Part shown: one piece after another, positions 1-8,303 of the stretch
Position numbering within the stretch: position 1 is the stretch's first letter
Layout: each line of letters begins with the position of its first letter
Source: Candidatus Multivorans sp.
Lineage (GTDB): Bacteria > Acidobacteriota > Thermoanaerobaculia > Multivoradales > Multivoraceae
NCBI GenBank assembly: GCA_965220845.1
Contig: CBDCRA010000005.1
Span: 896,016-960,015, forward strand
Direction of reading: 5' to 3'
Length of the DNA: 64,000 nt
Translations under genes and position numbers: made by a program
Notes under the pieces: generated by a model
Told to the model about the DNA's origin: nothing
The model's input: only the letters and a program-made list of their open reading frames with translations
The model's database searches: none

Positions 1-1281
1 GGTGCGGGTCGACTGCAGGAACTCGGCGACGCCGGTATCGGAGACGAAGGAGAGCCCGCCGGTCAGGCCGGCCAGACTGTTCAGTCCCGTCCGTACGTTC
101 GACAGCTCGACGATCGAGCCGCGGTCCTTGGCGCTCTCGCCGAGTTCGCTGATCGCCGGGTCGATGACCGGCGGCTTGAGCGGGTAGAAGGTGACCCGGT
201 GAGTGTTCGCGAGTGCCGCCAGTTGATCGAAGGCGTCCGCGCAGCTCAGCTCGGCGGCCAATGTCTGGAAGGCGAATGCGCCGCCGTCGTCGACCTGGAC
301 GATGTTCGTGGCCACGCCCATGCGGTCTGCCCGGTCAACGCCGAAGGGCCGGTGATTGCGATCGTTCAGGTCGAGCGAGCCGCGGGCGCTGATCATCTCG
401 TCGCCCTCGATCTGCCGGGAAGCGCCCGCGAGGCGGTCGTACATCGTCTTGGCCGCGCTGTCGAGGGGGTGGCGGGGCAGGCCGTCGCTCACGAACAGGA
501 TTGCCTTGCGGCCGGGAACGAAAGCCAGCGCCTCGACCAGCGAGCGCACCGCGCTGACGGTCAGCAGGGTGTCCTGCCGCAGGGCCTCGCCGAAGCTCCG
601 GAGGTTCGCTTCCACGCTGGCGAGGGAGGCCTCGCCGAGGCGGTAGCGGCTGCCCCTCGCCGCCATCAGGCGCAGCGTCTCCCTCATGGCCAGGGAGACG
701 GAGCGCTGCTGCGAGCGCAGGGTCGTCGTCGGGATGTCCCGTGCGATCGCCGCTTCGATCGTCGCTCGCACCGCCGCGCGGTCGCGGGTCGGCGACAGCA
801 GCGGTTCGAGACGCTCGCCGAACGCGGCGGCCGCCACCCAGGTCGGGTTGGCTGCAATCTCCTCGTCGAGGGCTGCAGCGATCTCGGCCAGGGCCGCGTC
901 GCGGTGCTTCCGCTGCAGGTGGCGCTCGTCGATGAAGAGGAGAATCGTCAGGCGTCCGGTGACGGTGGTGCGGAGGTCTTCTCCCGCGGCCACGCTCAGT
1001 ATCTCGACCGGTTCGTCCTGGACCTTGAGTTCGAAGTCGTCCTTGGTCAGGCCGGTCACCGGTCGGTCGGAGGAGTCGGTGACGACGGCGTCGAGACTGA
1101 TCAGCCGAACGTCTATCGACTCGCGGAGCACGATGTCCTCTCGAATCTGATCCAGCCGCGGCCGACCGTCCTGCGCGTTGGCCCCTGTCGGGCCCGCGAA
1201 GAGGGACGCGGCCGTGAGCGCCATGGCGGCGGTAGCGACCAGCAGCCTTGGCGGCCGGCGGTGGCGTGCGGAACCGGTCAA
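1..1281 (-). CDS. VWA (von Willebrand factor A) domain protein, Acidobacteria-type VWFA family; C-terminus lies beyond the window edge
   Basis: Not in the ORF track because it runs off the left edge. Manual minus-strand translation from TTG 1281 (or ATG 1224) gives an uninterrupted frame: signal-like N-terminus MTGSARHRRPPRLLVATAAMALTAASLFAGP, then DRPVTGLTKDDFELKVQDEPVEI ... KAILFVSDGLP ... typical of the VWFA-related Acidobacterial domain family. The track ORFs 199..1401(+) and 335..1288(-) over this region are low-complexity R/P/G-rich artefacts. Confidence 0.6.
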   Translation of the reverse strand, partial: MTGSARHRRPPRLLVATAAMALTAASLFAGPTGANAQDGRPRLDQIREDIVLRESIDVRLISLDAVVTDSSDRPVTGLTKDDFELKVQDEPVEILSVAAGEDLRTTVTGRLTILLFIDERHLQRKHRDAALAEIAAALDEEIAANPTWVAAAAFGERLEPLLSPTRDRAAVRATIEAAIARDIPTTTLRSQQRSVSLAMRETLRLMAARGSRYRLGEASLASVEANLRSFGEALRQDTLLTVSAVRSLVEALAFVPGRKAILFVSDGLPRHPLDSAAKTMYDRLAGASRQIEGDEMISARGSLDLNDRNHRPFGVDRADRMGVATNIVQVDDGGAFAFQTLAAELSCADAFDQLAALANTHRVTFYPLKPPVIDPAISELGESAKDRGSIVELSNVRTGLNSLAGLTGGLSFVSDTGVAEFLQSTRT

Positions 1282-1400
1282 CGGACACTCATGTTAGCGC
1301 CAGCCGGTTCGAGCCCGAGTCGCGGGGGAACCGGGCGAGCAGGCTGCTATCCTCACCGTTCGCGACCAGAGCAGGCCCTCATCGGAGGAGGCAGATTGTG

Positions 1401-2222
1401 ATGAAGCGGAGTCTCACGGAACGGGCGGTGTTGACGCTGCTTGCGGCGTTGGTGTTCGCGGCGGTGCCCGCGGCGGCGCAGGACAGCGACTACAGGGCGC
1501 CGCGCACCCACGACGACAGGCCGGATCTCAACGGGATCTGGCAGGCGCTGGGCGCGGCCCACTGGGACATCGAACCGCACGCCGCGCGCCACGGCCCGGT
1601 GGTCGAGATGGCCGCCCTGGGCGCGATACCCGGCGGTCTCGGCATCGTCGAAGGGGGCAGGATCCCGTACCTGCCGGAGGCGCTGGAGAAGCGCGATCAG
1701 AACCGCGAGAACTGGCTGGCGCTCGATCCGGCGGTGAAGTGCTACATGCCGGGCATCCCGCGCGCCAACTACATGCCGTTCCCGTTCCAGATCGTCCAGA
1801 CGCCCGATCACGTGCTGATCGCCTACGAGTTCGCCAGCGCCAGCCGCGTGGTCTACATGAACCGGGAGGGCTTCGAGGCTCCGTTCGATACCTGGATGGG
1901 ACACTCGATCGGTCGCTGGGAAGGGGAGACACTGGTGGTCGACGTGACGAGTCAGGTGCCGGACACCTGGCTCGACTCGAGCGGCAACCACCACACGGAC
2001 GCGATCCACGTCGAGGAGCGCTGGACCGCGATGAGCCCGTATCACCTCCAGTACGAGGCGACGATCACCGACGAGAACGTCTACAGCCAGCCCTGGACGA
2101 TCAGCCTGCCGCTCTACCGCAGGGTCGATCCGAACATGCAGTTGCTCGAGTTCAAGTGCGTCGAGTTCGCCGAGGAGCTGATGTACGGCCACCTGCGCAA
2201 GGGCGCCGACTCGGGTCCCTGA
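1401..2222 (+). CDS. secreted hypothetical protein, paralog 1 of a three-member family in this window
   Basis: RBS GGAGG 12 nt upstream of ATG 1401 (GTG 1398 also possible). Sec signal peptide MKRSLTERAVLTLLAALVFAAVPAAAQ. Shares the RPDL.G, V.C/GxxC, LVQT.DH, SIGRWEG(D/E)TLVV.T and C-terminal Cys motifs with the ORFs at 2698..3798 and 35954..37024. Confidence 0.75.
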   Translation: MKRSLTERAVLTLLAALVFAAVPAAAQDSDYRAPRTHDDRPDLNGIWQALGAAHWDIEPHAARHGPVVEMAALGAIPGGLGIVEGGRIPYLPEALEKRDQNRENWLALDPAVKCYMPGIPRANYMPFPFQIVQTPDHVLIAYEFASASRVVYMNREGFEAPFDTWMGHSIGRWEGETLVVDVTSQVPDTWLDSSGNHHTDAIHVEERWTAMSPYHLQYEATITDENVYSQPWTISLPLYRRVDPNMQLLEFKCVEFAEELMYGHLRKGADSGP

Positions 2223-2697: not shown

Positions 2698-3798
2698 CTA
2701 CTGGCCGCCGCTGGCCGCGCCGCGCGTCTCGTCCTCGAGCAGTCGCGCGCCCCTGAGGATGTTGCCCATGGCGTAGTTCCCCTCGTGGCAGGCGTACTCG
2801 TAGACCCTGGCCGGCGTGCCGGGCCACAGGTACTCGCCGCTCCAGGGCGCGCTCCACACGGTCGGGTCCTCGACCGTGAACGCGTAGAGCAAGTCGTCCG
2901 CGTTGACCCGTGTGAAGCGCTCGGTCACCTTGAGGTTCCGTGAGGCCAGGAAGAGCGCCGGGCGGTCGATGAAGTTCGTCGTCTCGACCACGAGTGTGTC
3001 GCCCTCCCACCAGCCGATCGAGTCGCCGAGCCAGCGGCGCTCGTCTGCTGGAATGTGCTCGCCGCCGATGCGGACGATGCGTGCGTCGTGCACCATCTCG
3101 ACCAGGATCATCAGGTGGTCCTCGGTCTGCACGAGCCGCTTTGCGTTGTTGTAGAGCACAGGCAGCATCGGCGGTCCGCCGGTGGAGCCGAAGCCGATCA
3201 GGCAACGTTCAGGCACGCCCAGGTTTTCGGGGCCATCGTACGGACCGGGGCCCTCGACCTCGAGCCACCAGGCCGTGCCGTCGTTGCCGCGCCGGCGACC
3301 GCGCCGCTCGGACATTCGCTGCAGCGTCTCGGCGGTCAGTTGCGGCATCCGGCCGTTCGGCGGATCGACGATGATCGAGGTCCGGAACCTGCCGTCGATC
3401 GAAAACACATCGCTGCCGCGATCGGTCCAGAAGTTGTTGTAGCCGCCGACGTTGCCGGCGCCGCTCGTTTCCCGGAACTCGTCACCCAGGCCGATGGGCG
3501 GCGCGCCGCCGGGCGGGGGCGGCTCGTCGATCCGGCGAACGGCGGCCCGGGACGCTACGCGCTGGCGCTCCCGTTCGACGATCTCTTCCGCCTGCTCGCG
3601 CGTCAGGTACAGGTTGTCGCCGAACTCCTGCGGGCGCTGCAGCGGGGTCAGCGTGGAGATGTCGTAGTCACCGGTCAGGTCGGGACGGCCGGAGGCCGTG
3701 CGCGGGATCGCGTCGTCGTCGGCGGCAGGCGCGGCTGGTACCGCGAGGAAGACAATGGCGGCGGCAGCGGCGACACCGACGTCAACTCTGCTCTGCAT
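2698..3798 (-). CDS. secreted hypothetical protein, paralog 2 of the three-member family
   Basis: RBS GAGGAG 7 nt upstream of ATG 3798. Signal peptide MQSRVDVGVAAAAAIVFLAVPAAPAADD. About 50 % identical to the 35954..37024 product (GRPDLTG.YDI.(S/T)LTP, FRTSI..PPNGRMP, NNxK(R/T)LVQT(E/D)D.LMI, GDSIG(W/R)WEGDTLVVETTNF, YEYACHEGNY). Confidence 0.8.
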   Translation of the reverse strand: MQSRVDVGVAAAAAIVFLAVPAAPAADDDAIPRTASGRPDLTGDYDISTLTPLQRPQEFGDNLYLTREQAEEIVERERQRVASRAAVRRIDEPPPPGGAPPIGLGDEFRETSGAGNVGGYNNFWTDRGSDVFSIDGRFRTSIIVDPPNGRMPQLTAETLQRMSERRGRRRGNDGTAWWLEVEGPGPYDGPENLGVPERCLIGFGSTGGPPMLPVLYNNAKRLVQTEDHLMILVEMVHDARIVRIGGEHIPADERRWLGDSIGWWEGDTLVVETTNFIDRPALFLASRNLKVTERFTRVNADDLLYAFTVEDPTVWSAPWSGEYLWPGTPARVYEYACHEGNYAMGNILRGARLLEDETRGAASGGQ

Positions 3799-3986
3799 GG
3801 CGGCTCTCCTCATCGATTGCTGGGAGTGCGACCGTTATACCAGCATGCCGCGGCTGAGGCAGGCGGAGAGAGTTGGCGCCGGGCCTTGTTGGTCGCCATG
3901 CACAGTGGGCACGAAACGCCCCGCCTATTCGCCGAGCGCCGGGAGCGACCCGGCGCCTGGTGTCGACTGTTGTATTCGGCAGGAGA

Positions 3987-4059
3987 CCCGGCTCGCAGGC
4001 CCACGGCGCGACGACAACCAACGGCGAGAAGCTACCGCGCGGTCGATTGTCCGTCAAAC
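3987..4059 (-). repeat. conserved ~75-nt intergenic element, copy 1 (second copy at 8229..8303)
   Basis: Blocks CCGGCTCGCAGGCCCAC ... GACAACCAACGG ... CTA.CGCGC ... GTCCGTCAAAC are shared with 8229..8303 in the same order and spacing. Lies in the gap between the Yip1-like gene stop (4110) and the paralog-2 start (3798). Confidence 0.5.
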
Positions 4060-4109
4060 GACTCGGCCAGGTGGCGGAGTGGGACCGGGCCGGACGCCGA
4101 CCCGTCCGG

Positions 4110-4808
4110 TCAGCGTAGGGACGCCGTCACCACCGCGAAGACCAGGCCCGCCAGACCCATCTCCAGCACCTTCCCTGCCGCCCAGTGGATCGCGGCAATG
4201 GCGAACCCGGCTGGTCGGGACACCCGGAACACCGAGGCGGCGCCCAGGCCGAGCAGGAGCAAGGACCAGACGAAGACGAGGGAGCCGATCAGCAGGTCGA
4301 GAATCGCGCCGGGCGCCATTTCGGCTACCTGCCCGATCACGTCGAGGCCGGAGTCCGGTCTCCTGTCGAGGACGCTCCGCTGCATCTCGACGAGGCCGTC
4401 GACCTGGGTGGTTCTCAGCAGCGAGCGGACGACCAGCCCCACGGCGCCGATGAGTCCTACATGGAGGGCCAGCGACAGGCACTGTTCGAACCGCGCCCGA
4501 CCCTTGAGGGCCGCGGCCAGGAGCCGGAGCACTGCCGCCTCGACCAGGAGCGCGAGCGGGATGGCTGCGATGACGAACGACAGCATCCCATAGGGAATCT
4601 CGAGGGGATCACCGATGCTGTCCATCGCATCGGCCAACAGCGACGTCGTCAACAGTACGGCCAGGACTGTCAGGGAGATGCCCAGAGTCAGGCCGGCAAC
4701 CCACGGGTGGTGCTCGCGGATGACGGCGAAGCTCTTCCGCGGAGCGGTGAAGATCCAGATCAGGGCCTTGAACCAGAGGTGGCGGCTCGCCTCCGGTTCT
4801 TCGCCCAT
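4110..4808 (-). CDS. Yip1-like (Yip1/DUF1282 family) polytopic membrane protein
   Basis: 232-aa ORF with 5-6 predicted TM helices. Hydrophobic profile and motifs resemble the Yip1 domain. Last gene of the putative peptide-export operon. Confidence 0.5.
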   Translation of the reverse strand: MGEEPEASRHLWFKALIWIFTAPRKSFAVIREHHPWVAGLTLGISLTVLAVLLTTSLLADAMDSIGDPLEIPYGMLSFVIAAIPLALLVEAAVLRLLAAALKGRARFEQCLSLALHVGLIGAVGLVVRSLLRTTQVDGLVEMQRSVLDRRPDSGLDVIGQVAEMAPGAILDLLIGSLVFVWSLLLLGLGAASVFRVSRPAGFAIAAIHWAAGKVLEMGLAGLVFAVVTASLR

Positions 4809-4853
4809 GAGGGGACTGTATCGACTCGTGATCGAACCGGAGACTCGGCCCGG

Positions 4854-5633
4854 TCAGCTCGGTGTGAGCCGGGCGAAGAGACCGGCCGCCACGGCGGTGA
4901 AGGCCGTCGTCGCTGCCCAGTAGATGGCGGCCAGCAGCCATGCCTTGCGCTGCGGAACCTCGAACACCGCGGCGGCGCCCAGCGCGAGCAGCGCGAGAAA
5001 CCAGATCGTGAACGGGTTGATGCTCGCGTAGACGGCATTGAGCGTCGCGTTGTCGCCGGCCAGCAGCAGGTCGAGTCCCATCGGCGCCCGGAGGTCCAGT
5101 TGCGATCGGATCGCGTCGGTGCCGCGGAGGTGAACGAGAAGGAAGTTGGCCCAGCTCTGAAGATGAGTGATTACGGCCAGGTGGATCATGAGGGCGAGGG
5201 ACTGGACGAATCGGGGACGTCCCTGGAGGGCGATCGCCAGGAGCCACACGAGGACGGTCTGAATCGCGAGTCCGACGGCCACGGAGAGGGGACCGGTGGC
5301 CATCGCCAGCCAACGCCCTGCCGCGGCTGCCTGTTCGAACTGCGCCATCATGGCGTCGACCTGTTCGGGGCTGCCCGGCATCCGTTCCGTCAGTTGGGCC
5401 CGCATGGCCTGGAGGCCCAGCGGCGCCGAGGCAAACGCCAGGGCGGCGTTCCCGGCCAGGACCAGGAGCAGCGTTGCGAGCCATGGGTTGCGGTTCCGGA
5501 TGATCTCGAAGCTCTGCCGCGGCGACCCGAAGAGCCCGAGCAGCGCCGTGAGCCAGGCGCTCCGGCCCCGCGAGCGTCCGCCTCCGGTCCCGGCGTTGCG
5601 TTCGTGGTTGGTGCTGCCTGGATGCTCGGTCAT
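4854..5633 (-). CDS. Yip1-like polytopic membrane protein (second copy)
   Basis: Start ATG 5633 (MTEHPGS...) with AGGAG 6 nt upstream. The start overlaps the stop of the upstream ABC ATPase gene (ATGA coupling). The long N-terminal extension in the track ORF is R-rich and probably not translated. Confidence 0.55.
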   Translation of the reverse strand: MTEHPGSTNHERNAGTGGGRSRGRSAWLTALLGLFGSPRQSFEIIRNRNPWLATLLLVLAGNAALAFASAPLGLQAMRAQLTERMPGSPEQVDAMMAQFEQAAAAGRWLAMATGPLSVAVGLAIQTVLVWLLAIALQGRPRFVQSLALMIHLAVITHLQSWANFLLVHLRGTDAIRSQLDLRAPMGLDLLLAGDNATLNAVYASINPFTIWFLALLALGAAAVFEVPQRKAWLLAAIYWAATTAFTAVAAGLFARLTPS

Positions 5634-6418
5634 GTCGTGCTCCTGTTGCCGATCCAGGAGAGGCGGGAGAACCTCTCGCGCCTGGAGATGCTGAGAATGA
5701 GGTTCTCGAGCCGCCCGGCGCCGTCTTCCCCTTCGGCGGCGGGCAATTCGCGGAACTCCTCCCGGGAGCACGACAGGAGGACCTTGCCGTCCCTGATGAC
5801 GGCGATGTGGGTCGATACGCGCTCGACGTAGTCGAGCATGTGGGATGTGAGGAAGATGGCTGCTCCCTGCTCGGCCATCTGCTGCAGGATCGACATGACG
5901 GTGCGGGCGCTCAGGGCGTCCATCCCCTCGAACGGCTCGTCGAGGAACAGGATTCGCGGTGCGTGAAGGGTCGCCGCGGCGAGGCGGATCTTCTTCCTCA
6001 TGCCGTGGGAGTAGGTCGTGATCGGCCGCTTGGCGGCGTCCTCGAGGTCGAAGACTGCGAGCGCCTCGTCGGTCCGCTGCCCGGCGTCCTCGCGGCCCAG
6101 GCCGTAGATGCGGGCATACGACAGCAGCAGTTCCTCGCCGGTCAGGCTCTCGAACATCACGCTGTGGTCGGGCACGATGCCGAGTTCCTGCTTGAGCTCG
6201 GTGTCGTCGATGTCCATCGGCTTGCCGAGCAGCCGCACCGTGCCCTTCGTCGGTTGCAAGACTCCGGTCAACATCGACCAGGTCGTCGTCTTGCCGGCCC
6301 CGTTGGGGCCGACGAAACCCAGAATCTGCCCCTCCCGGACGTCCAGATCGACGCCGTCGACGACGACGTTTCCTCCGTACGACCGGGTCAGGTTCTCTGC
6401 CTTGATTGCTTCTTCCAT
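5630..6418 (-). CDS. ABC transporter ATP-binding protein, ABC-2 (DrrA/CcmA-like) type
   Basis: Walker A GPNGAGKTT, signature YSHGMRKKIRLA, Walker B ILFLDEP. RBS AAGGA upstream of ATG 6418 (MEEAIKAENLTRSYGG...). Confidence 0.9.
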   Translation of the reverse strand: MEEAIKAENLTRSYGGNVVVDGVDLDVREGQILGFVGPNGAGKTTTWSMLTGVLQPTKGTVRLLGKPMDIDDTELKQELGIVPDHSVMFESLTGEELLLSYARIYGLGREDAGQRTDEALAVFDLEDAAKRPITTYSHGMRKKIRLAAATLHAPRILFLDEPFEGMDALSARTVMSILQQMAEQGAAIFLTSHMLDYVERVSTHIAVIRDGKVLLSCSREEFRELPAAEGEDGAGRLENLILSISRRERFSRLSWIGNRSTT

Positions 6419-6470
6419 CCGTGAGGTGTTCCTTGTGGTTGTAGGGGCAGAGGGGGTTGTGGGGCAGGGG

Positions 6471-8060
6471 TTAGTGGGAAGGGTCTCCGAGGAGGAGTTC
6501 ATGTGCCCGGGACTCGATCTCGCGTCGCTGCCGGATCGTGGAGGCGTGGCGGGCCAGGACCGTGCCGACGAGAGCGCCGCTTGTGAGAAAGCCGATCAGA
6601 AAGCCGTTCCCGGGTCGTTCCAGGAGCCTCGAGACAACGATCGTCAAGAAGAAGAGCGCCATAGCGGAAAGACCTGCCACGGAACTGGCCGCCAGGTTTT
6701 CCAGTTCAAACTCCGTGGCGCCGGCGGTCTTGCGCTTGGGCCAGTACAACCGGATCAGGCTGAACGCGGCATCTGCGAGCAGCACTGTGGCTGTCACCAG
6801 CACGGCGGCGGTCGCGGCGGGCCGCCACCCCGCCACGCCAAAGATGACGATGCCGCCGCTCGTCCCAAGAGTTGCAACCGGAACGGTCAGGAGGGCCGGC
6901 ACCCTGGTGGGCGTCCGGAAGATCCGGAACGAGCCCAGCGGCAGGGAAAGAGACTCACGCCAGACTTGGCAGCTCGGTGGCGGCTTCTCGGTCAGCACGC
7001 CGTTCACCATCAGGACGGTCAGAAGGGCGGCCGCCATCAGACCGAACAGGAGATCGATGGAGACCCACGTTGCGTAACCGAGGGCCATCGCGTAGGCCCA
7101 ACGAACGCCCTTTGCCCGGAGGCAGCATTCCACCTCGACGAGCGCCAGACAGGTGGCGGGAGACAAGTTGCCGCATCGACGCAGCAGTCCGGCCAGGGGC
7201 GTCACCGGCGAAGCCGTCCGGCGGTCGCCTCCCGGCTGCAACAGATAGCGCCGGAGCAGGAGTCCGTACTCGACGCCGGCGGTCGCCGCCAGAAGAACCA
7301 GCAGGATACCGAGCCGAAGGAGGTTCGGAAGGTGTTGTCCGGGCGAGTCGAGAATGGCCGCGAGAAGACCTGGAGGCGTGTAGCCGAGTGCGACGAGAAT
7401 CTTCGCCTTACGGACCGTGGCTTCAAGCGCCTCGAGGCTGGCCTCGCCGCCCAGGACGTTGATGACGATGCCGGCGGCCTGAATCAATGCTACGACGACG
7501 AGAAACACGCCCAGGACCCCGATCAGGCTCTCGACGAACCGGTCGATGGCCAGCGTGACGATCGCTGCCATCCGCCCGAGCAGTAGCACCGTGACTCCCA
7601 GAGCGCCGCTTATCAACAGGAAGTCGACCGGCCCTTCGGTCCGTGTCGCGAGCAGGAAGAGGGCCGCGGGTCCGAGCACCAGTAGCCAGTAGCCGACCAG
7701 GCTGAAAGCCAGGCGGAGCAGATAGAGATCCCGATAAGCGACGGGGAGCGGCAGGAACGGCTCGAGGTCCAGGAGCCAGTTCATCGGTAAGCGGAGGACC
7801 ACCTGGGCCAGGAGCCACAGCGCGGCGGCGGCGGAGATGCCGAGGTTCAGCAGGTTCCGGCGCAGCGCTTCGTCGTCGATACCGAAGAGCAGGGACAGCA
7901 GTGGCAGGCTCCCGGCAGTCGCCACGGCCAGGTAGAGCAGGGCGAGTCCGATCGCCACGGCCGGTGGCTGATCGGCTCGCCGCAATGCATCCGGAAGCGC
8001 GAGCCGGCCTAGCGTCAGCAGCCGGTCGGCCCGGCTTCCGTGCGCAGTCAACCTGGCCAT
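6471..8060 (-). CDS. large polytopic membrane protein, putative ABC-2-type permease (paralog B)
   Basis: 529 aa with more than 10 predicted TM helices. Shares LRR.LL, LY.LRLA..L.G.WLL.LG.AA, R.VE.LIG, FTP.GLLAA.LD.P and LS.LLRR motifs with the 8298..9956 product. Confidence 0.7.
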   Translation of the reverse strand: MARLTAHGSRADRLLTLGRLALPDALRRADQPPAVAIGLALLYLAVATAGSLPLLSLLFGIDDEALRRNLLNLGISAAAALWLLAQVVLRLPMNWLLDLEPFLPLPVAYRDLYLLRLAFSLVGYWLLVLGPAALFLLATRTEGPVDFLLISGALGVTVLLLGRMAAIVTLAIDRFVESLIGVLGVFLVVVALIQAAGIVINVLGGEASLEALEATVRKAKILVALGYTPPGLLAAILDSPGQHLPNLLRLGILLVLLAATAGVEYGLLLRRYLLQPGGDRRTASPVTPLAGLLRRCGNLSPATCLALVEVECCLRAKGVRWAYAMALGYATWVSIDLLFGLMAAALLTVLMVNGVLTEKPPPSCQVWRESLSLPLGSFRIFRTPTRVPALLTVPVATLGTSGGIVIFGVAGWRPAATAAVLVTATVLLADAAFSLIRLYWPKRKTAGATEFELENLAASSVAGLSAMALFFLTIVVSRLLERPGNGFLIGFLTSGALVGTVLARHASTIRQRREIESRAHELLLGDPSH

Positions 8061-8228
8061 GGAGTCCTTGGGGTCACTGTCCGGCTCTCGCGATGGGGAA
8101 GGCCGACACCAGGACTGGCGGCGGACCGCGCTGGCCGCCTTGCAGAGGAGCGACGAGACCCCCCACCGCTTCGCCTGACGAAGGGAGCGACCCTAGGCCC
8201 AGGGGCACTGGCCAAGCGTGGCAGGGGG

Positions 8229-8303
8229 TCCGGCTCGCAGGCCCACTGCGCCTCTGACAACCAACGGTCGGACGCTAGCGCGCCGGGATGGCGTCCGTCA
8301 AAC
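8229..8303 (-). repeat. conserved ~75-nt intergenic element, copy 2
   Basis: See 3987..4059. Overlaps the stop codon of permease paralog A and sits in the 237-nt gap before permease paralog B. Confidence 0.5.

What the first reader, a model, noticed from the sequence alone, without database searches (positions are those of the whole stretch)
3987..8303. Conserved ~75-nt non-coding element present twice, each 170-260 nt upstream of a minus-strand gene start
3987-4059 and 8229-8303 share four ordered sequence blocks (CCGGCTCGCAGGCCCAC / GACAACCAACGG / CTA.CGCGC / GTCCGTCAAAC) separated by equal-length variable spacers. This pattern looks like a structured RNA or protein-binding site, not coding sequence (substitutions are not 3-periodic). 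Copy 1 lies between the Yip1-like gene and paralog 2; copy 2 lies between the two permease genes and overlaps the stop of the first. It could be a small RNA, a 3'-UTR or attenuator element, or a shared cis-regulatory site linking the peptide-export operon with the paralog family.
Basis: seen in the sequence. Interest (0 to 1): 0.6.

Follow-up and report, generated by a model that had tools for sequence, protein, structure and literature searches.

The report
Paired promoter-plus-leader RNA, new motif
The two similar stretches are real: each looks like a promoter followed by a roughly 150-base folded RNA leader in front of a gene on the minus strand, a motif absent from Rfam that is conserved as a pair inside a bacteriocin-like gene cluster of one group of uncultured Acidobacteriota.

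Summary
Copy A spans window 3874-4057 and copy B spans 8116-8301, both read on the minus strand.

The same two paralogous types occur in 32 species-level Acidobacteriota genomes (Thermoanaerobaculia / Ca. Multivorans) and in 6 more contigs. Wherever both lie on one stretch, B is 3.5-5.3 kb upstream of A on the same strand.

B lies 49-58 nt before a permease gene of an ABC export/immunity operon. A lies before a secreted 366-aa protein.

Substitutions keep a bulged-rod RNA fold: 94-99% of cells are paired, against 34-57% in slid controls. Read on the opposite strand, only 75% pair. True double compensatory changes are few.

There is no Rfam 15 match, no coding signal and no sign of a mobile element.

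Best reading: a new cis-regulatory 5' leader RNA with its own promoter, either riboswitch-like or factor-binding. It would put two adjacent transcription units under one signal. The signal and the switching mechanism are unknown.

The find is moderately interesting and confined to a narrow clade.

The parts
3874..4057 (-). Type A unit, whole: promoter-like hexamers plus a ~150-nt leader RNA upstream of the secreted 366-aa protein gene.
   Evidence: Alignment with copy B. CM R1 hit at 3874-4030, 163.5 bits. Orthologous copies in 32 genomes.
4052..4057 (-). Type A -35-like hexamer TTGACG.
   Evidence: Invariant in all 59 aligned copies. Lies 17-18 nt from the TAnnnT hexamer while the spacer sequence varies.
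4029..4034 (-). Type A -10-like hexamer TAGCTT (TAACTT in other lineages).
   Evidence: T1, A2 and T6 are conserved. It ends 6-7 nt before helix P1. The generic consensus scan did not flag it.
4013..4022 (-). Type A helix P1, 5' strand GUUGGUUGUC, the presumed 5' end of the transcript.
   Evidence: Pairs with 3888-3897.
3988..4004 (-). Invariant block GUGGGCCUGCGAGCCGG. It holds the P3 5' strand, the P4 5' strand GCGA and the 4-nt bulge GCCG.
   Evidence: Identical in 72 of the 74 CM-detected copies. The two exceptions are L031 B and L204 A.
3941..3951 (-). Distal hairpin GGG-UCGCU-CCC.
   Evidence: Invariant in A and B copies, with two variants: L198 B has loop UAGCU and L204 B has CCU.
3888..3897 (-). 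Type A helix P1, 3' strand GGCGACCAAC.
3874..3885 (-). Conserved tail GGCCCGGCGCCA after P1.
   Evidence: Conserved in A and B as GGYCCGSCRCCA. Its role is unexplained.
3834..3842 (-). TGGTATAAC, an extended -10-like motif between the type A RNA and the gene. Present only in 'long' type A leaders.
   Evidence: Conserved GCTGGTATAAC lies 35-45 nt before the ATG in many lineages. It is absent from compact leaders.
2698..3798 (-). Gene downstream of type A: a secreted 366-aa protein of unknown function. The likely true start is the second ATG at 3796-3798, with SD GAGGAGAG at 3803-3810.
   Evidence: ORF. Ortholog starts and SD. Family of at least 8000 'hypothetical' proteins. The model has a weakly calycin-like beta-barrel.
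8116..8301 (-). Type B unit, whole: promoter-like hexamers plus a ~150-nt leader RNA upstream of the 529-aa permease gene.
   Evidence: CM R1 hit at 8116-8273, 140.6 bits. Alignment.
8296..8301 (-). Type B -35-like hexamer TTGACG. It overlaps the stop codon (8298-8300) of the upstream 552-aa permease ORF.
8272..8277 (-). Type B -10-like hexamer TAGCGT, with an 18-nt spacer.
8256..8265 (-). Type B helix P1, 5' strand GUUGGUUGUC.
   Evidence: Pairs with 8130-8139, including G-U pairs.
8230..8246 (-). Invariant block GUGGGCCUGCGAGCCGG, type B.
8183..8193 (-). Distal hairpin GGG-UCGCU-CCC, type B.
8130..8139 (-). Type B helix P1, 3' strand GGCGGCCAGC.
8103..8127 (-). Type B tail GGUCCGCCGCCA and the downstream hairpin (CCG-CCRCC...GGUG-YCGG), which lies between the rod and the ribosome-binding site.
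   Evidence: Helix 10: 7 pairs, 99.5% of cells paired, with A-U/G-U variation. The loop sequence varies between lineages.
6471..8060 (-). Gene downstream of type B: a 529-aa permease from a clade-restricted family. It is followed by the ABC ATPase (5630-6502) and two Yip1/YknW-like genes (4854-5771, 4110-4808).

Best explanation
Each copy is a transcription start region followed directly by a structured 5' leader RNA on the minus strand.

Anatomy. A sigma-70-like promoter (TTGACG, 17-18 nt, TAnnnT) would start the transcript at or within a few nucleotides of GUUGG. The first ~150 nt fold into one long bulged hairpin. It has helices P1 to P5, an invariant asymmetric internal-loop/bulge region GGGCCUGCGAGCCGG, and a distal junction carrying the invariant hairpin GGG-UCGCU-CCC.

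Proposed action. The leader acts in cis on the mRNA it heads. Type B would control the permease / ABC-ATPase / YknW-like export or immunity genes. Type A would control the adjacent secreted 366-aa protein. Because the two leaders share the same core, one signal would control both units. The signal could be a small ligand, as in a riboswitch, or a protein. Binding at the invariant core is inferred to change the short hairpins between the rod and the ribosome-binding site, and so change translation initiation or transcript elongation.

Shown: the conservation, the paired arrangement, the strand, the fold-preserving substitution pattern, and the fixed position relative to the downstream start codon.

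Inferred: that the hexamers are a promoter, that the RNA is regulatory, what binds it, and how the output is switched.
For: 1. Distribution. There are 63 exact-pattern copies in 32 species-representative genomes. A further 11 came from contigs fetched by protein or from the CM search.
2. Two types and their order. Types A and B are distinct. Wherever both lie on one stretch, B is 3.5-5.3 kb upstream of A on the same strand.
3. Clean separation from background. The CM search gives 70 hits of at least 127 bits, and the next best scores 16.8 bits.
4. Promoter pattern. The hexamers are invariant, the spacing is fixed at 17-18 nt, the spacer sequence varies, and the -10 ends 6-7 nt before P1.
5. 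Fold conservation. On the joint alignment, 94.3% of 1853 cells over 33 pairs are paired, against 43-57% when partners are slid. Type-specific structures reach 99.3% and 99.5%, with 21 and 16 additional pair types.
6. Strand. 20.5% of cells are G-U, and only 74.9% pair when the opposite strand is read. The consensus fold is -46.3 kcal/mol on the minus strand and -30.8 on the plus strand.
7. Compensatory series. One P1 pair (A8 columns 19 and 144) shows C-G, U-G and U-A in different lineages, including L031 B. A P7 pair is A-U in B and C-G in A.
8. Indels fall in loops. Examples are the 13-nt insert in L202 and the 2-nt indels in type A.
9. Leader position. Type B ends 49-58 nt before the permease ATG in five lineages although the upstream gene differs. 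Compact type A leaders place the SD 12-15 nt after the RNA tail.
10. Not coding.
Against: 1. Transcription, the start site and any regulatory effect are untested.
2. The generic promoter scan found no site here, because the -10-like hexamer is a poor consensus match.
3. Covariation is mostly one-sided (wobble). Only 1-3 pairs per alignment change on both sides. The type-specific structures were derived from the same sequences on which they were counted.
4. The sequences come from one narrow clade, so shared ancestry inflates the agreement.
5. Single-sequence folding energy is not unusual for type B (z = -0.37 and -0.27). It is only mildly so for type A (z = -1.08 and -2.32).
6. No clear terminator or anti-terminator, or SD/anti-SD switch, could be shown. 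An alternative hairpin between the P1 3' strand and the tail is not kept in variants L046, L068 and L031 B.
7. A type A RNA persists in L031 and L035 without the downstream gene.
8. 'Long' type A leaders carry a second promoter-like motif between the RNA and the gene.
Confidence: 0.55

Rival explanations
1. The element works only at the DNA level. It would be a duplicated promoter plus an extended operator or initially-transcribed region bound by a transcription factor or nucleoid protein, and the apparent RNA fold would be a by-product.
For: The hexamers and the 5' half of the unit are more conserved than the 3' half. Type B has an inverted repeat GGACGC-N15/16-GCGTCC spanning the -35 and -10. 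Double compensatory changes are few.
Against: Conservation runs from about +1 to +150, which is long for an operator. Substitutions are strand-asymmetric, with 94.3% of cells paired on the sense strand against 74.9% on the antisense strand and 20.5% G-U cells. DNA recognition would not produce that pattern. Helix P1 joins sequences 115-125 nt apart and is kept through C-G/U-G/U-A changes. Indels fall in predicted loops.
Confidence: 0.13
2. The two units are independent small-RNA genes, trans-acting or otherwise autonomous, and merely sit in front of the genes.
For: Each has its own promoter-like element and the transcript would begin exactly at the structure. Type A is retained intact in L031 and L035, where the downstream gene is missing. 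Long type A leaders have a separate TGGTATAAC promoter-like motif for the gene.
Against: No intrinsic terminator-like site was found at the 3' end of either RNA in the window, and I saw no hairpin with a U-tract after the other copies. Type B keeps a fixed 49-58 nt distance to the permease ATG. In compact type A leaders the SD follows 12-15 nt after the tail, leaving no room for a separate promoter.
Confidence: 0.15
3. The RNA is a cis-acting, polymerase-modifying (processive antitermination) element. It would be analogous to phage HK022 putL/putR or the Bacillus EAR element and would keep RNA polymerase elongating through the operon.
For: There are two paralogous copies, each placed immediately after a promoter. 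One of them (B) is inside an operon between transporter genes. The resemblance to put and EAR comes from my own knowledge of those systems.
Against: There is no match to any Rfam family, at gathering score or at E <= 10. Type A precedes a single gene, where processive antitermination has little to act on. No internal terminators were identified downstream of B.
Confidence: 0.1
4. It is a repeated or mobile element (REP, MITE or integron attC-like) or a remnant of a duplicated coding region.
For: The ends are complementary (GTTGG...CCAAC) and the unit can form a long hairpin.
Against: The exact-pattern scan finds only two copies per genome in 13 complete chromosomes, and one plus a CM-detected variant in a 14th. 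They are always at the same syntenic positions. There are no matches in plasmids or viral contigs. The GTT/AAC ends are in the reverse order to attC and no integrase is present. There is no codon periodicity, the indels are not multiples of three, and no frame is open in all copies. The flanking coding sequences are unrelated.
Confidence: 0.02

Closest known systems
Orphan riboswitch candidates and other cis-regulatory 5' leader RNA motifs found by comparative genomics (the kind curated in Rfam as 'Cis-reg; leader/riboswitch')
   Same: It is a conserved structured RNA placed directly after a promoter-like element and before a start codon. It lies upstream of transporter/exporter genes. More than one copy per genome heads functionally linked units. 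The most conserved nucleotides sit in internal loops and a hairpin loop.
   Different: It matches none of the 4227 Rfam 15 families. No ligand is known and no demonstrable expression platform was found. The shape is a long bulged rod rather than a compact multi-helix junction. The helices are conserved in sequence, probably because the clade is narrow (one order of Thermoanaerobaculia).
Phage HK022 putL/putR and the Bacillus EAR processive-antitermination RNAs (compared from my own knowledge)
   Same: They are paralogous cis-acting RNAs placed just downstream of promoters or between genes of an operon, and they act on the polymerase that makes them.
   Different: The put elements are two short stem-loops of ~70 nt. 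No sequence or structure similarity was detected. There is no evidence for terminators that would need to be overridden. Function is untested.
Bacillus YknWXYZ-type peptide-toxin efflux/immunity systems (PMC4887032), as the kind of genes under type B control
   Same: The operon after type B encodes an ABC ATPase and Yip1/YknW-family membrane proteins. It sits next to a C39 peptidase and peptide genes with double-glycine leaders.
   Different: The matches to the YknW model are below its curated cut-off (36.7 and 68.6 bits against 110). The permeases belong to an unannotated family of only 60 database clusters. No RNA leader is known to me for yknWXYZ.

Membership tests
Any Rfam 15 RNA family | Covariance-model score at or above the family's gathering threshold | tested here: not met
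   There were no matches in the whole window at gathering score. With E <= 10 on 3700-8500, no hit overlaps either copy.
Riboswitch | Conserved, structured aptamer-like domain in the 5' untranslated region of the regulated mRNA | tested here: met
   The fold is conserved and lies 12-130 nt (A) or 49-58 nt (B) before the start codons. Transcription itself was not tested.
Riboswitch | Direct, specific binding of a small-molecule or ion ligand | not testable with these tools
   This needs in-line probing, ITC or similar experiments with candidate ligands.
Riboswitch | Expression platform with mutually exclusive structures (terminator/antiterminator or SD sequestration) | tested here: inconclusive
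   Conserved hairpins lie between the rod and the SD in type B (helix 10). The candidate alternative pairing of the P1 3' strand with the tail is not kept in L046, L068 or L031 B. No terminator-like site was found at the 3' end of either RNA.
Sigma-70-type promoter | Two hexamers resembling TTGACA and TATAAT, 16-18 nt apart | tested here: inconclusive
   TTGACG (5 of 6) is invariant, and the second hexamer TAGCTT / TAACTT / TAGCGT keeps the T1, A2 and T6 positions in nearly all copies (L024 reads TCGCTT). Spacing is 17-18 nt with a variable spacer in all 59 aligned copies. The -10 matches only 3 of 6, so the consensus scan reports no site. The start site was not mapped.
Structured RNA supported by covariation | Statistically supported compensatory base-pair changes | tested here: inconclusive
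   Substitutions preserve pairing and are strand-specific. However, only 1-3 pairs per alignment change on both sides, and the sequences are closely related. R-scape was not available.
Integron attC / REP / MITE repeats | Many dispersed copies, or cassette-associated copies with an integrase; R'' (RYYYAAC) first and R' (GTTRRRY) last | tested here: not met
   There are two syntenic copies per genome. The order of the GTT and AAC ends is reversed. There are no plasmid or viral matches.
Protein-coding sequence / leader peptide | A conserved open frame with codon-periodic substitution | tested here: not met
   Mismatches fall 19/20/23 by phase, lengths are 151-159 nt, and no frame is open in all 60 distinct copies.

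The most novel reading that the evidence does not exclude
The rod-shaped leader is a new riboswitch class, or a new kind of cis-acting RNA sensor. It would detect a signal tied to production of, or exposure to, the cluster's own double-glycine peptides, for example a membrane-active or hydrophobic compound. It would switch on, in parallel, an ABC/YknW-type export or immunity pump and a secreted calycin-like binding protein. That would be RNA-based control of bacteriocin self-protection in an uncultured acidobacterial lineage.
Probability: 0.2. Interest if true: 0.7.

Novelty: new member of a known kind. Interest (0 to 1): 0.5.

Why it matters
This would add an undescribed structured RNA motif in Thermoanaerobaculia / Ca. 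Multivorans. I found no paper that mentions both riboswitches and this class.

Two diverged copies of one leader head two adjacent units. That gives a natural internal control for working out what the RNA senses.

The regulated genes are an unannotated permease family, YknW-like proteins, and a member of a very large and highly conserved family of 'hypothetical' secreted proteins. All are of unknown function, so a shared regulator is a handle on their biology.

The limits are real. The clade is narrow, there is no cultured host, and there is no ligand or mechanism yet.

Tried and rejected
1. Metagenome DNA-pattern scan. The pattern GTTGGTYGYCN{118,145}GGNCCCGSCRCC returned 120 loci.

2. Kissing-loop or pseudoknot between GCGA (in CUGCGAG) and the UCGC hairpin loop. 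Of the three natural variants, two break it (L198 B UAGCU; L031 B GCUA). It is not supported. Helix P4 (GCGA/UCGU) fits better.

3. Alternative hairpin between the P1 3' strand and the tail GGCCCGSCRCCA, as an anti-P1 switch. It is weakened without compensation in L046, L198 A, L068 and L031 B, so I rejected it as stated.

4. Pairing of the type B junction GAGUC with GACUC next to the SD. It is lost in the window lineage, L037 and L070, and is probably chance.

5. A 5' extension of P1 ('P0') using bases between the -10 and P1. These bases would not be in the transcript if the promoter call is right.

6. Association with the 366-aa protein family in general. Homologues at 65-70% identity in other Thermoanaerobaculia sit in unrelated contexts with no copy.

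7. Third copies in the cluster or in the window. None scores above 17 bits.

8. Function of the 366-aa protein. There is no Pfam, NCBIfam or PDB sequence match. The AF2 model (pLDDT 74) gives only weak FABP/calycin-like barrel matches, E ~0.01.

9. Literature. I found no paper on Thermoanaerobaculia riboswitches or on Ca. Multivorans.


Full report
**Observation**

The blocks CCGGCTCGCAGGCCCAC, GACAACCAACGG, CTA.CGCGC and GTCCGTCAAAC lie in the same order at 3987-4059 and 8229-8303. The 17-mer occurs exactly twice in 64 kb.

An alignment of the flanks shows that the similarity continues about 110 nt further toward the minus-strand genes. It contains more identical blocks: GGGTCGCTCCC, GGCGAA and a GGYCCGSCGCCA tail. 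blastn of copy 1 against the window aligns 198 nt to copy 2 with E = 2.9e-16, and the next hit has E = 0.003.

The units are therefore about 185 nt. Copy A spans 3874-4057 and copy B spans 8116-8301.

**Not coding, not a repeat family**

- Mismatches between the copies fall evenly over the three codon phases (19/20/23).
- Copy lengths in different genomes range from 151 to 159 nt.
- No frame is open in all copies.
- No further copy exists in the window.
- Nothing similar is found in plasmid records or viral contigs.

**Other genomes**

I scanned one genome per species (GTDB) for two internal blocks. The scan gave 75 stretches, of which 63 matches are true copies from 32 Acidobacteriota genomes. 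Their labels are Thermoanaerobaculia, Candidatus Multivorans, 'Holophagales', 'Acidobacteria' and one 'Vicinamibacteraceae'. Ca. Multivorans belongs to the class Thermoanaerobaculia.

The copies fall into two types that match the two window copies. Type A precedes the secreted-protein gene and type B precedes a permease gene. Whenever both lie on one fetched stretch, B is upstream and A lies 3.5-5.3 kb downstream on the same strand. The window spacing is 4242 nt.

In 13 complete chromosomes the pattern finds exactly two places, and in a 14th it finds one. Divergent extra copies elsewhere in those genomes cannot be excluded by an exact-pattern scan.

A covariance model built from 60 copies (R1) separates cleanly. 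It gives 70 hits of 127-171 bits, and the next best scores 16.8 bits. It also found a type B copy in L031 that the pattern had missed. Contigs fetched through permease homologues added 10 more copies.

**Reading the unit**

On the minus strand each unit begins with GTTTGACGG. After 17-18 nt comes TAGCTT, TAACTT or TAGCGT. After another 6-7 nt comes GUUGGUYGUC.

Across all aligned copies TTGACG is invariant, and the T, A and final T of the second hexamer are kept in nearly all. The spacing is held while the spacer sequence differs freely between lineages. That is the signature of a sigma-70-type promoter, with the transcript starting at or just before GUUGG.

The call rests on this conservation pattern. 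The generic consensus scan does not report a site, because the -10 matches only 3 of 6.

The other two are the first 45 nt of the RNA.

**RNA fold**

Consensus folding of the two window copies, and of each type separately, gives the same architecture. It is a long bulged hairpin with these parts:

- P1: GUUGGUYGUC pairs with GRCGRCCRAY 115-125 nt downstream.
- P2: GCG(C) pairs with (G)YGC.
- P3: GGGC pairs with GCCC. Its register differs by 2 nt between A and B.
- P4: GCGA pairs with UCGU.
- Bulge: an invariant 4-nt GCCG.
- P5: up to 11 bp, GACCCCCUGCC with GGCGGGGGGUC.
- Distal junction: its only invariant part is the hairpin GGG-UCGCU-CCC.

On a joint A+B alignment, 33 common pairs are formed in 94.3% of 1853 cells. 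Sliding the partners by 1-3 columns gives 43-57%. The type-specific structures are formed in 99.3% and 99.5% of cells, with 21 and 16 extra pair types.

Almost all variation is wobble-mediated: U-A/U-G, C-G/U-G and G-C/G-U. G-U pairs make up 20.5% of cells. Reading the other strand drops pairing to 74.9%. The consensus energy is -46.3 kcal/mol on the minus strand and -30.8 on the plus strand. The constraint is therefore on an RNA of minus-strand sense.

Full compensatory changes are few.

- One P1 pair passes through C-G, U-G and U-A in different lineages. L031 B has GGUUGC/GCAACC where other type B copies have GGUCGU/GCGGCC.
- A P7 pair is A-U in type B and C-G in type A.
- A P6 pair in type B is C-G in 22 of the 26 distinct sequences and U-A in 4.

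Length changes fall in loops. Examples are a 13-nt insertion in L202 at the P3 region and 2-nt indels in type A.

Caveats apply. The structures were derived from these same sequences, the clade is narrow, and single-sequence energies are unremarkable (z = -0.3 to -2.3).

**Leader or not**

For type B the upstream neighbour differs between genomes. It is a permease in the window and L198, and the last small-peptide gene in L196, L197 and L204. The end of the RNA nevertheless always lies 49-58 nt before a permease start codon. That fits a 5' leader, not a 3' element.

Type A always follows a Yip1-like gene, at 27-490 nt. It precedes the secreted-protein gene in two layouts.

- Compact layout: the ribosome-binding site GAGGAGAG follows 12-15 nt after the tail.
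- Long layout (the window has this one): 75-130 nt intervene and contain a conserved GCTGGTATAAC that looks like an extended -10.

In two genomes, L031 and L035, the downstream gene is gone but the type A RNA is intact. This keeps an autonomous small-RNA role open for type A.

**Context**

The cluster is conserved. In order it contains:

- a redoxin-like gene;
- a stand-alone C39 peptidase;
- two to four ~100-aa proteins, three in the window, with double-glycine-type leaders such as ...LAAVTGG|NAW and ...EMAVLGGG|APDW;
- one to three ~530-550-aa permeases from a family of only 60 database clusters;
- a DrrA-like ABC ATPase;
- one to three Yip1/YknW-like membrane proteins;
- the type A RNA;
- a secreted 366-aa protein.

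YknWXYZ is the Bacillus efflux pump for the SDP peptide toxin (PMC4887032). The cluster therefore looks like a class-II-bacteriocin-type production/export/immunity locus. That reading is an inference from domain content, and the YknW matches are below the curated cut-off.

The 366-aa protein belongs to a very large and highly conserved family in which every member listed by the search that carries a name is called 'hypothetical' (at least 8000 hits, 60-70% identity across phyla). Its model has a C-terminal beta-barrel with weak FABP/calycin-like matches. Homologues outside this clade have no RNA copy.

**What it most likely is**

It is a promoter plus a cis-acting structured leader, duplicated long ago. 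Two neighbouring units would therefore answer to one signal: the export/immunity pump and the secreted protein.

The likely recognition surface is the invariant, partly unpaired core: GGGCCUGCGAGCCGG with its GCCG bulge, plus the UCGCU loop. Either a small ligand or a protein could be recognised there.

I could not define an expression platform. Type B has conserved hairpins between the rod and the SD (helix 10), but the alternative pairings I proposed failed against natural variants.

Rival readings are a DNA-only operator, autonomous small RNAs, and a put/EAR-like antitermination element. They are weighed in the rival explanations given with this report.

**Comparison with known families**

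No Rfam 15 family matches at gathering score, or at E <= 10. I found no paper pairing Thermoanaerobaculia with riboswitches and none mentioning Ca. Multivorans. In kind it belongs with orphan riboswitch or leader motifs. In placement it recalls the paired put RNAs of phage HK022; that comparison is from my own knowledge and not from a test.

**Verdict**

The feature is real and functional. It is a new member of a known kind, a cis-regulatory leader RNA motif, and it is restricted to one acidobacterial lineage. Interest is moderate (0.5). It would be higher if a ligand or a new control logic for bacteriocin self-protection were shown.

Noticed in passing
window 10039-12475 (minus strand): A bacteriocin-like module. 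It holds a redoxin-like gene (11828-12475), a stand-alone C39 peptidase (11236-12024) and three small ORFs with double-glycine-type leader cleavage motifs. These are 10806-11201 (...LAAVTGG|NAWMVSV), 10414-10893 (...EMAVLGGG|APDW) and 10039-10335 (...AIQGA|LAWKW). Other genomes carry two to four such genes in tandem.
   Followed up: partly
window 3796-3813 (minus strand): The mechanical ORF 2698-3813 starts at an upstream in-frame ATG that lies inside the ribosome-binding site. Orthologs and the SD GAGGAGAG (3803-3810) indicate that the true start is the ATG at 3796-3798, giving a 366-aa product.
   Followed up: yes
window 3834-3842 (minus strand); also L001, L003, L010, L018, L196-L198: A conserved GCTGGTATAAC, like an extended -10 (TGnTATAAC), lies 35-45 nt before the start codon in 'long' type A leaders. 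It is missing in compact ones. It may be a second promoter that bypasses the leader.
   Followed up: partly
window 8272-8301 (minus strand): Type B copies carry an inverted repeat spanning the -35- and -10-like hexamers, directly after the stop codon of the upstream permease. Its core is GGACGC-N15/16-GCGTCC, extending to 9 bp (GACGGRCGC / GCGUCCGUC) in many genomes. It could be an operator or the terminator hairpin of the upstream gene. Type A has no equivalent.
   Followed up: no
L031 6077-6234 and 1-1620 (OY762911.1): In this genome the type B copy has four substitutions in the otherwise invariant block (GGGCCTGCGAGCCGG becomes GGGCCCGCTACTCGG). P1 is kept there by compensatory change. The 366-aa gene after type A is missing, so the intact type A RNA faces the 3' end of a convergent DUF6152 gene.
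   Followed up: partly
L035 1-1184 (OZ242353.1): The type A RNA is intact, but the region downstream is replaced by unrelated sequence. That sequence includes an ORF on the opposite strand that I read, by eye only, as resembling a Vsr very-short-patch repair endonuclease. It may be a local insertion or replacement.
   Followed up: no
window 2698-3798; paralogues at 1248-2222 (+) and about 36.2-37.3 kb: The secreted 366-aa protein belongs to a huge, highly conserved, unannotated family. There are at least 8000 hits at 60-70% identity in Acidobacteriota and Gammaproteobacteria, with no Pfam or NCBIfam model. Invariant motifs include YNNxK, HDAR and EYACHEGNY. One paralogue sits next to a DUF6152 gene whose product has HHAFSAEFD right after its predicted signal peptide.
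   Followed up: partly
L202 355-400: A type B copy from a Logan assembly has a 13-nt insertion forming a small extra hairpin (CCCUG-UUC-AGGG) on the 3' side of the rod, between P4 and P2. That region therefore tolerates length change.
   Followed up: no
window 6471-8060 and 8298-9956: The two ~530-550-aa permeases are paralogues (about 42-45% identity classes). Their family has only 60 clusters among 5.8 billion proteins and no domain annotation. The number of permease genes per cluster varies from one to three between genomes.
   Followed up: partly
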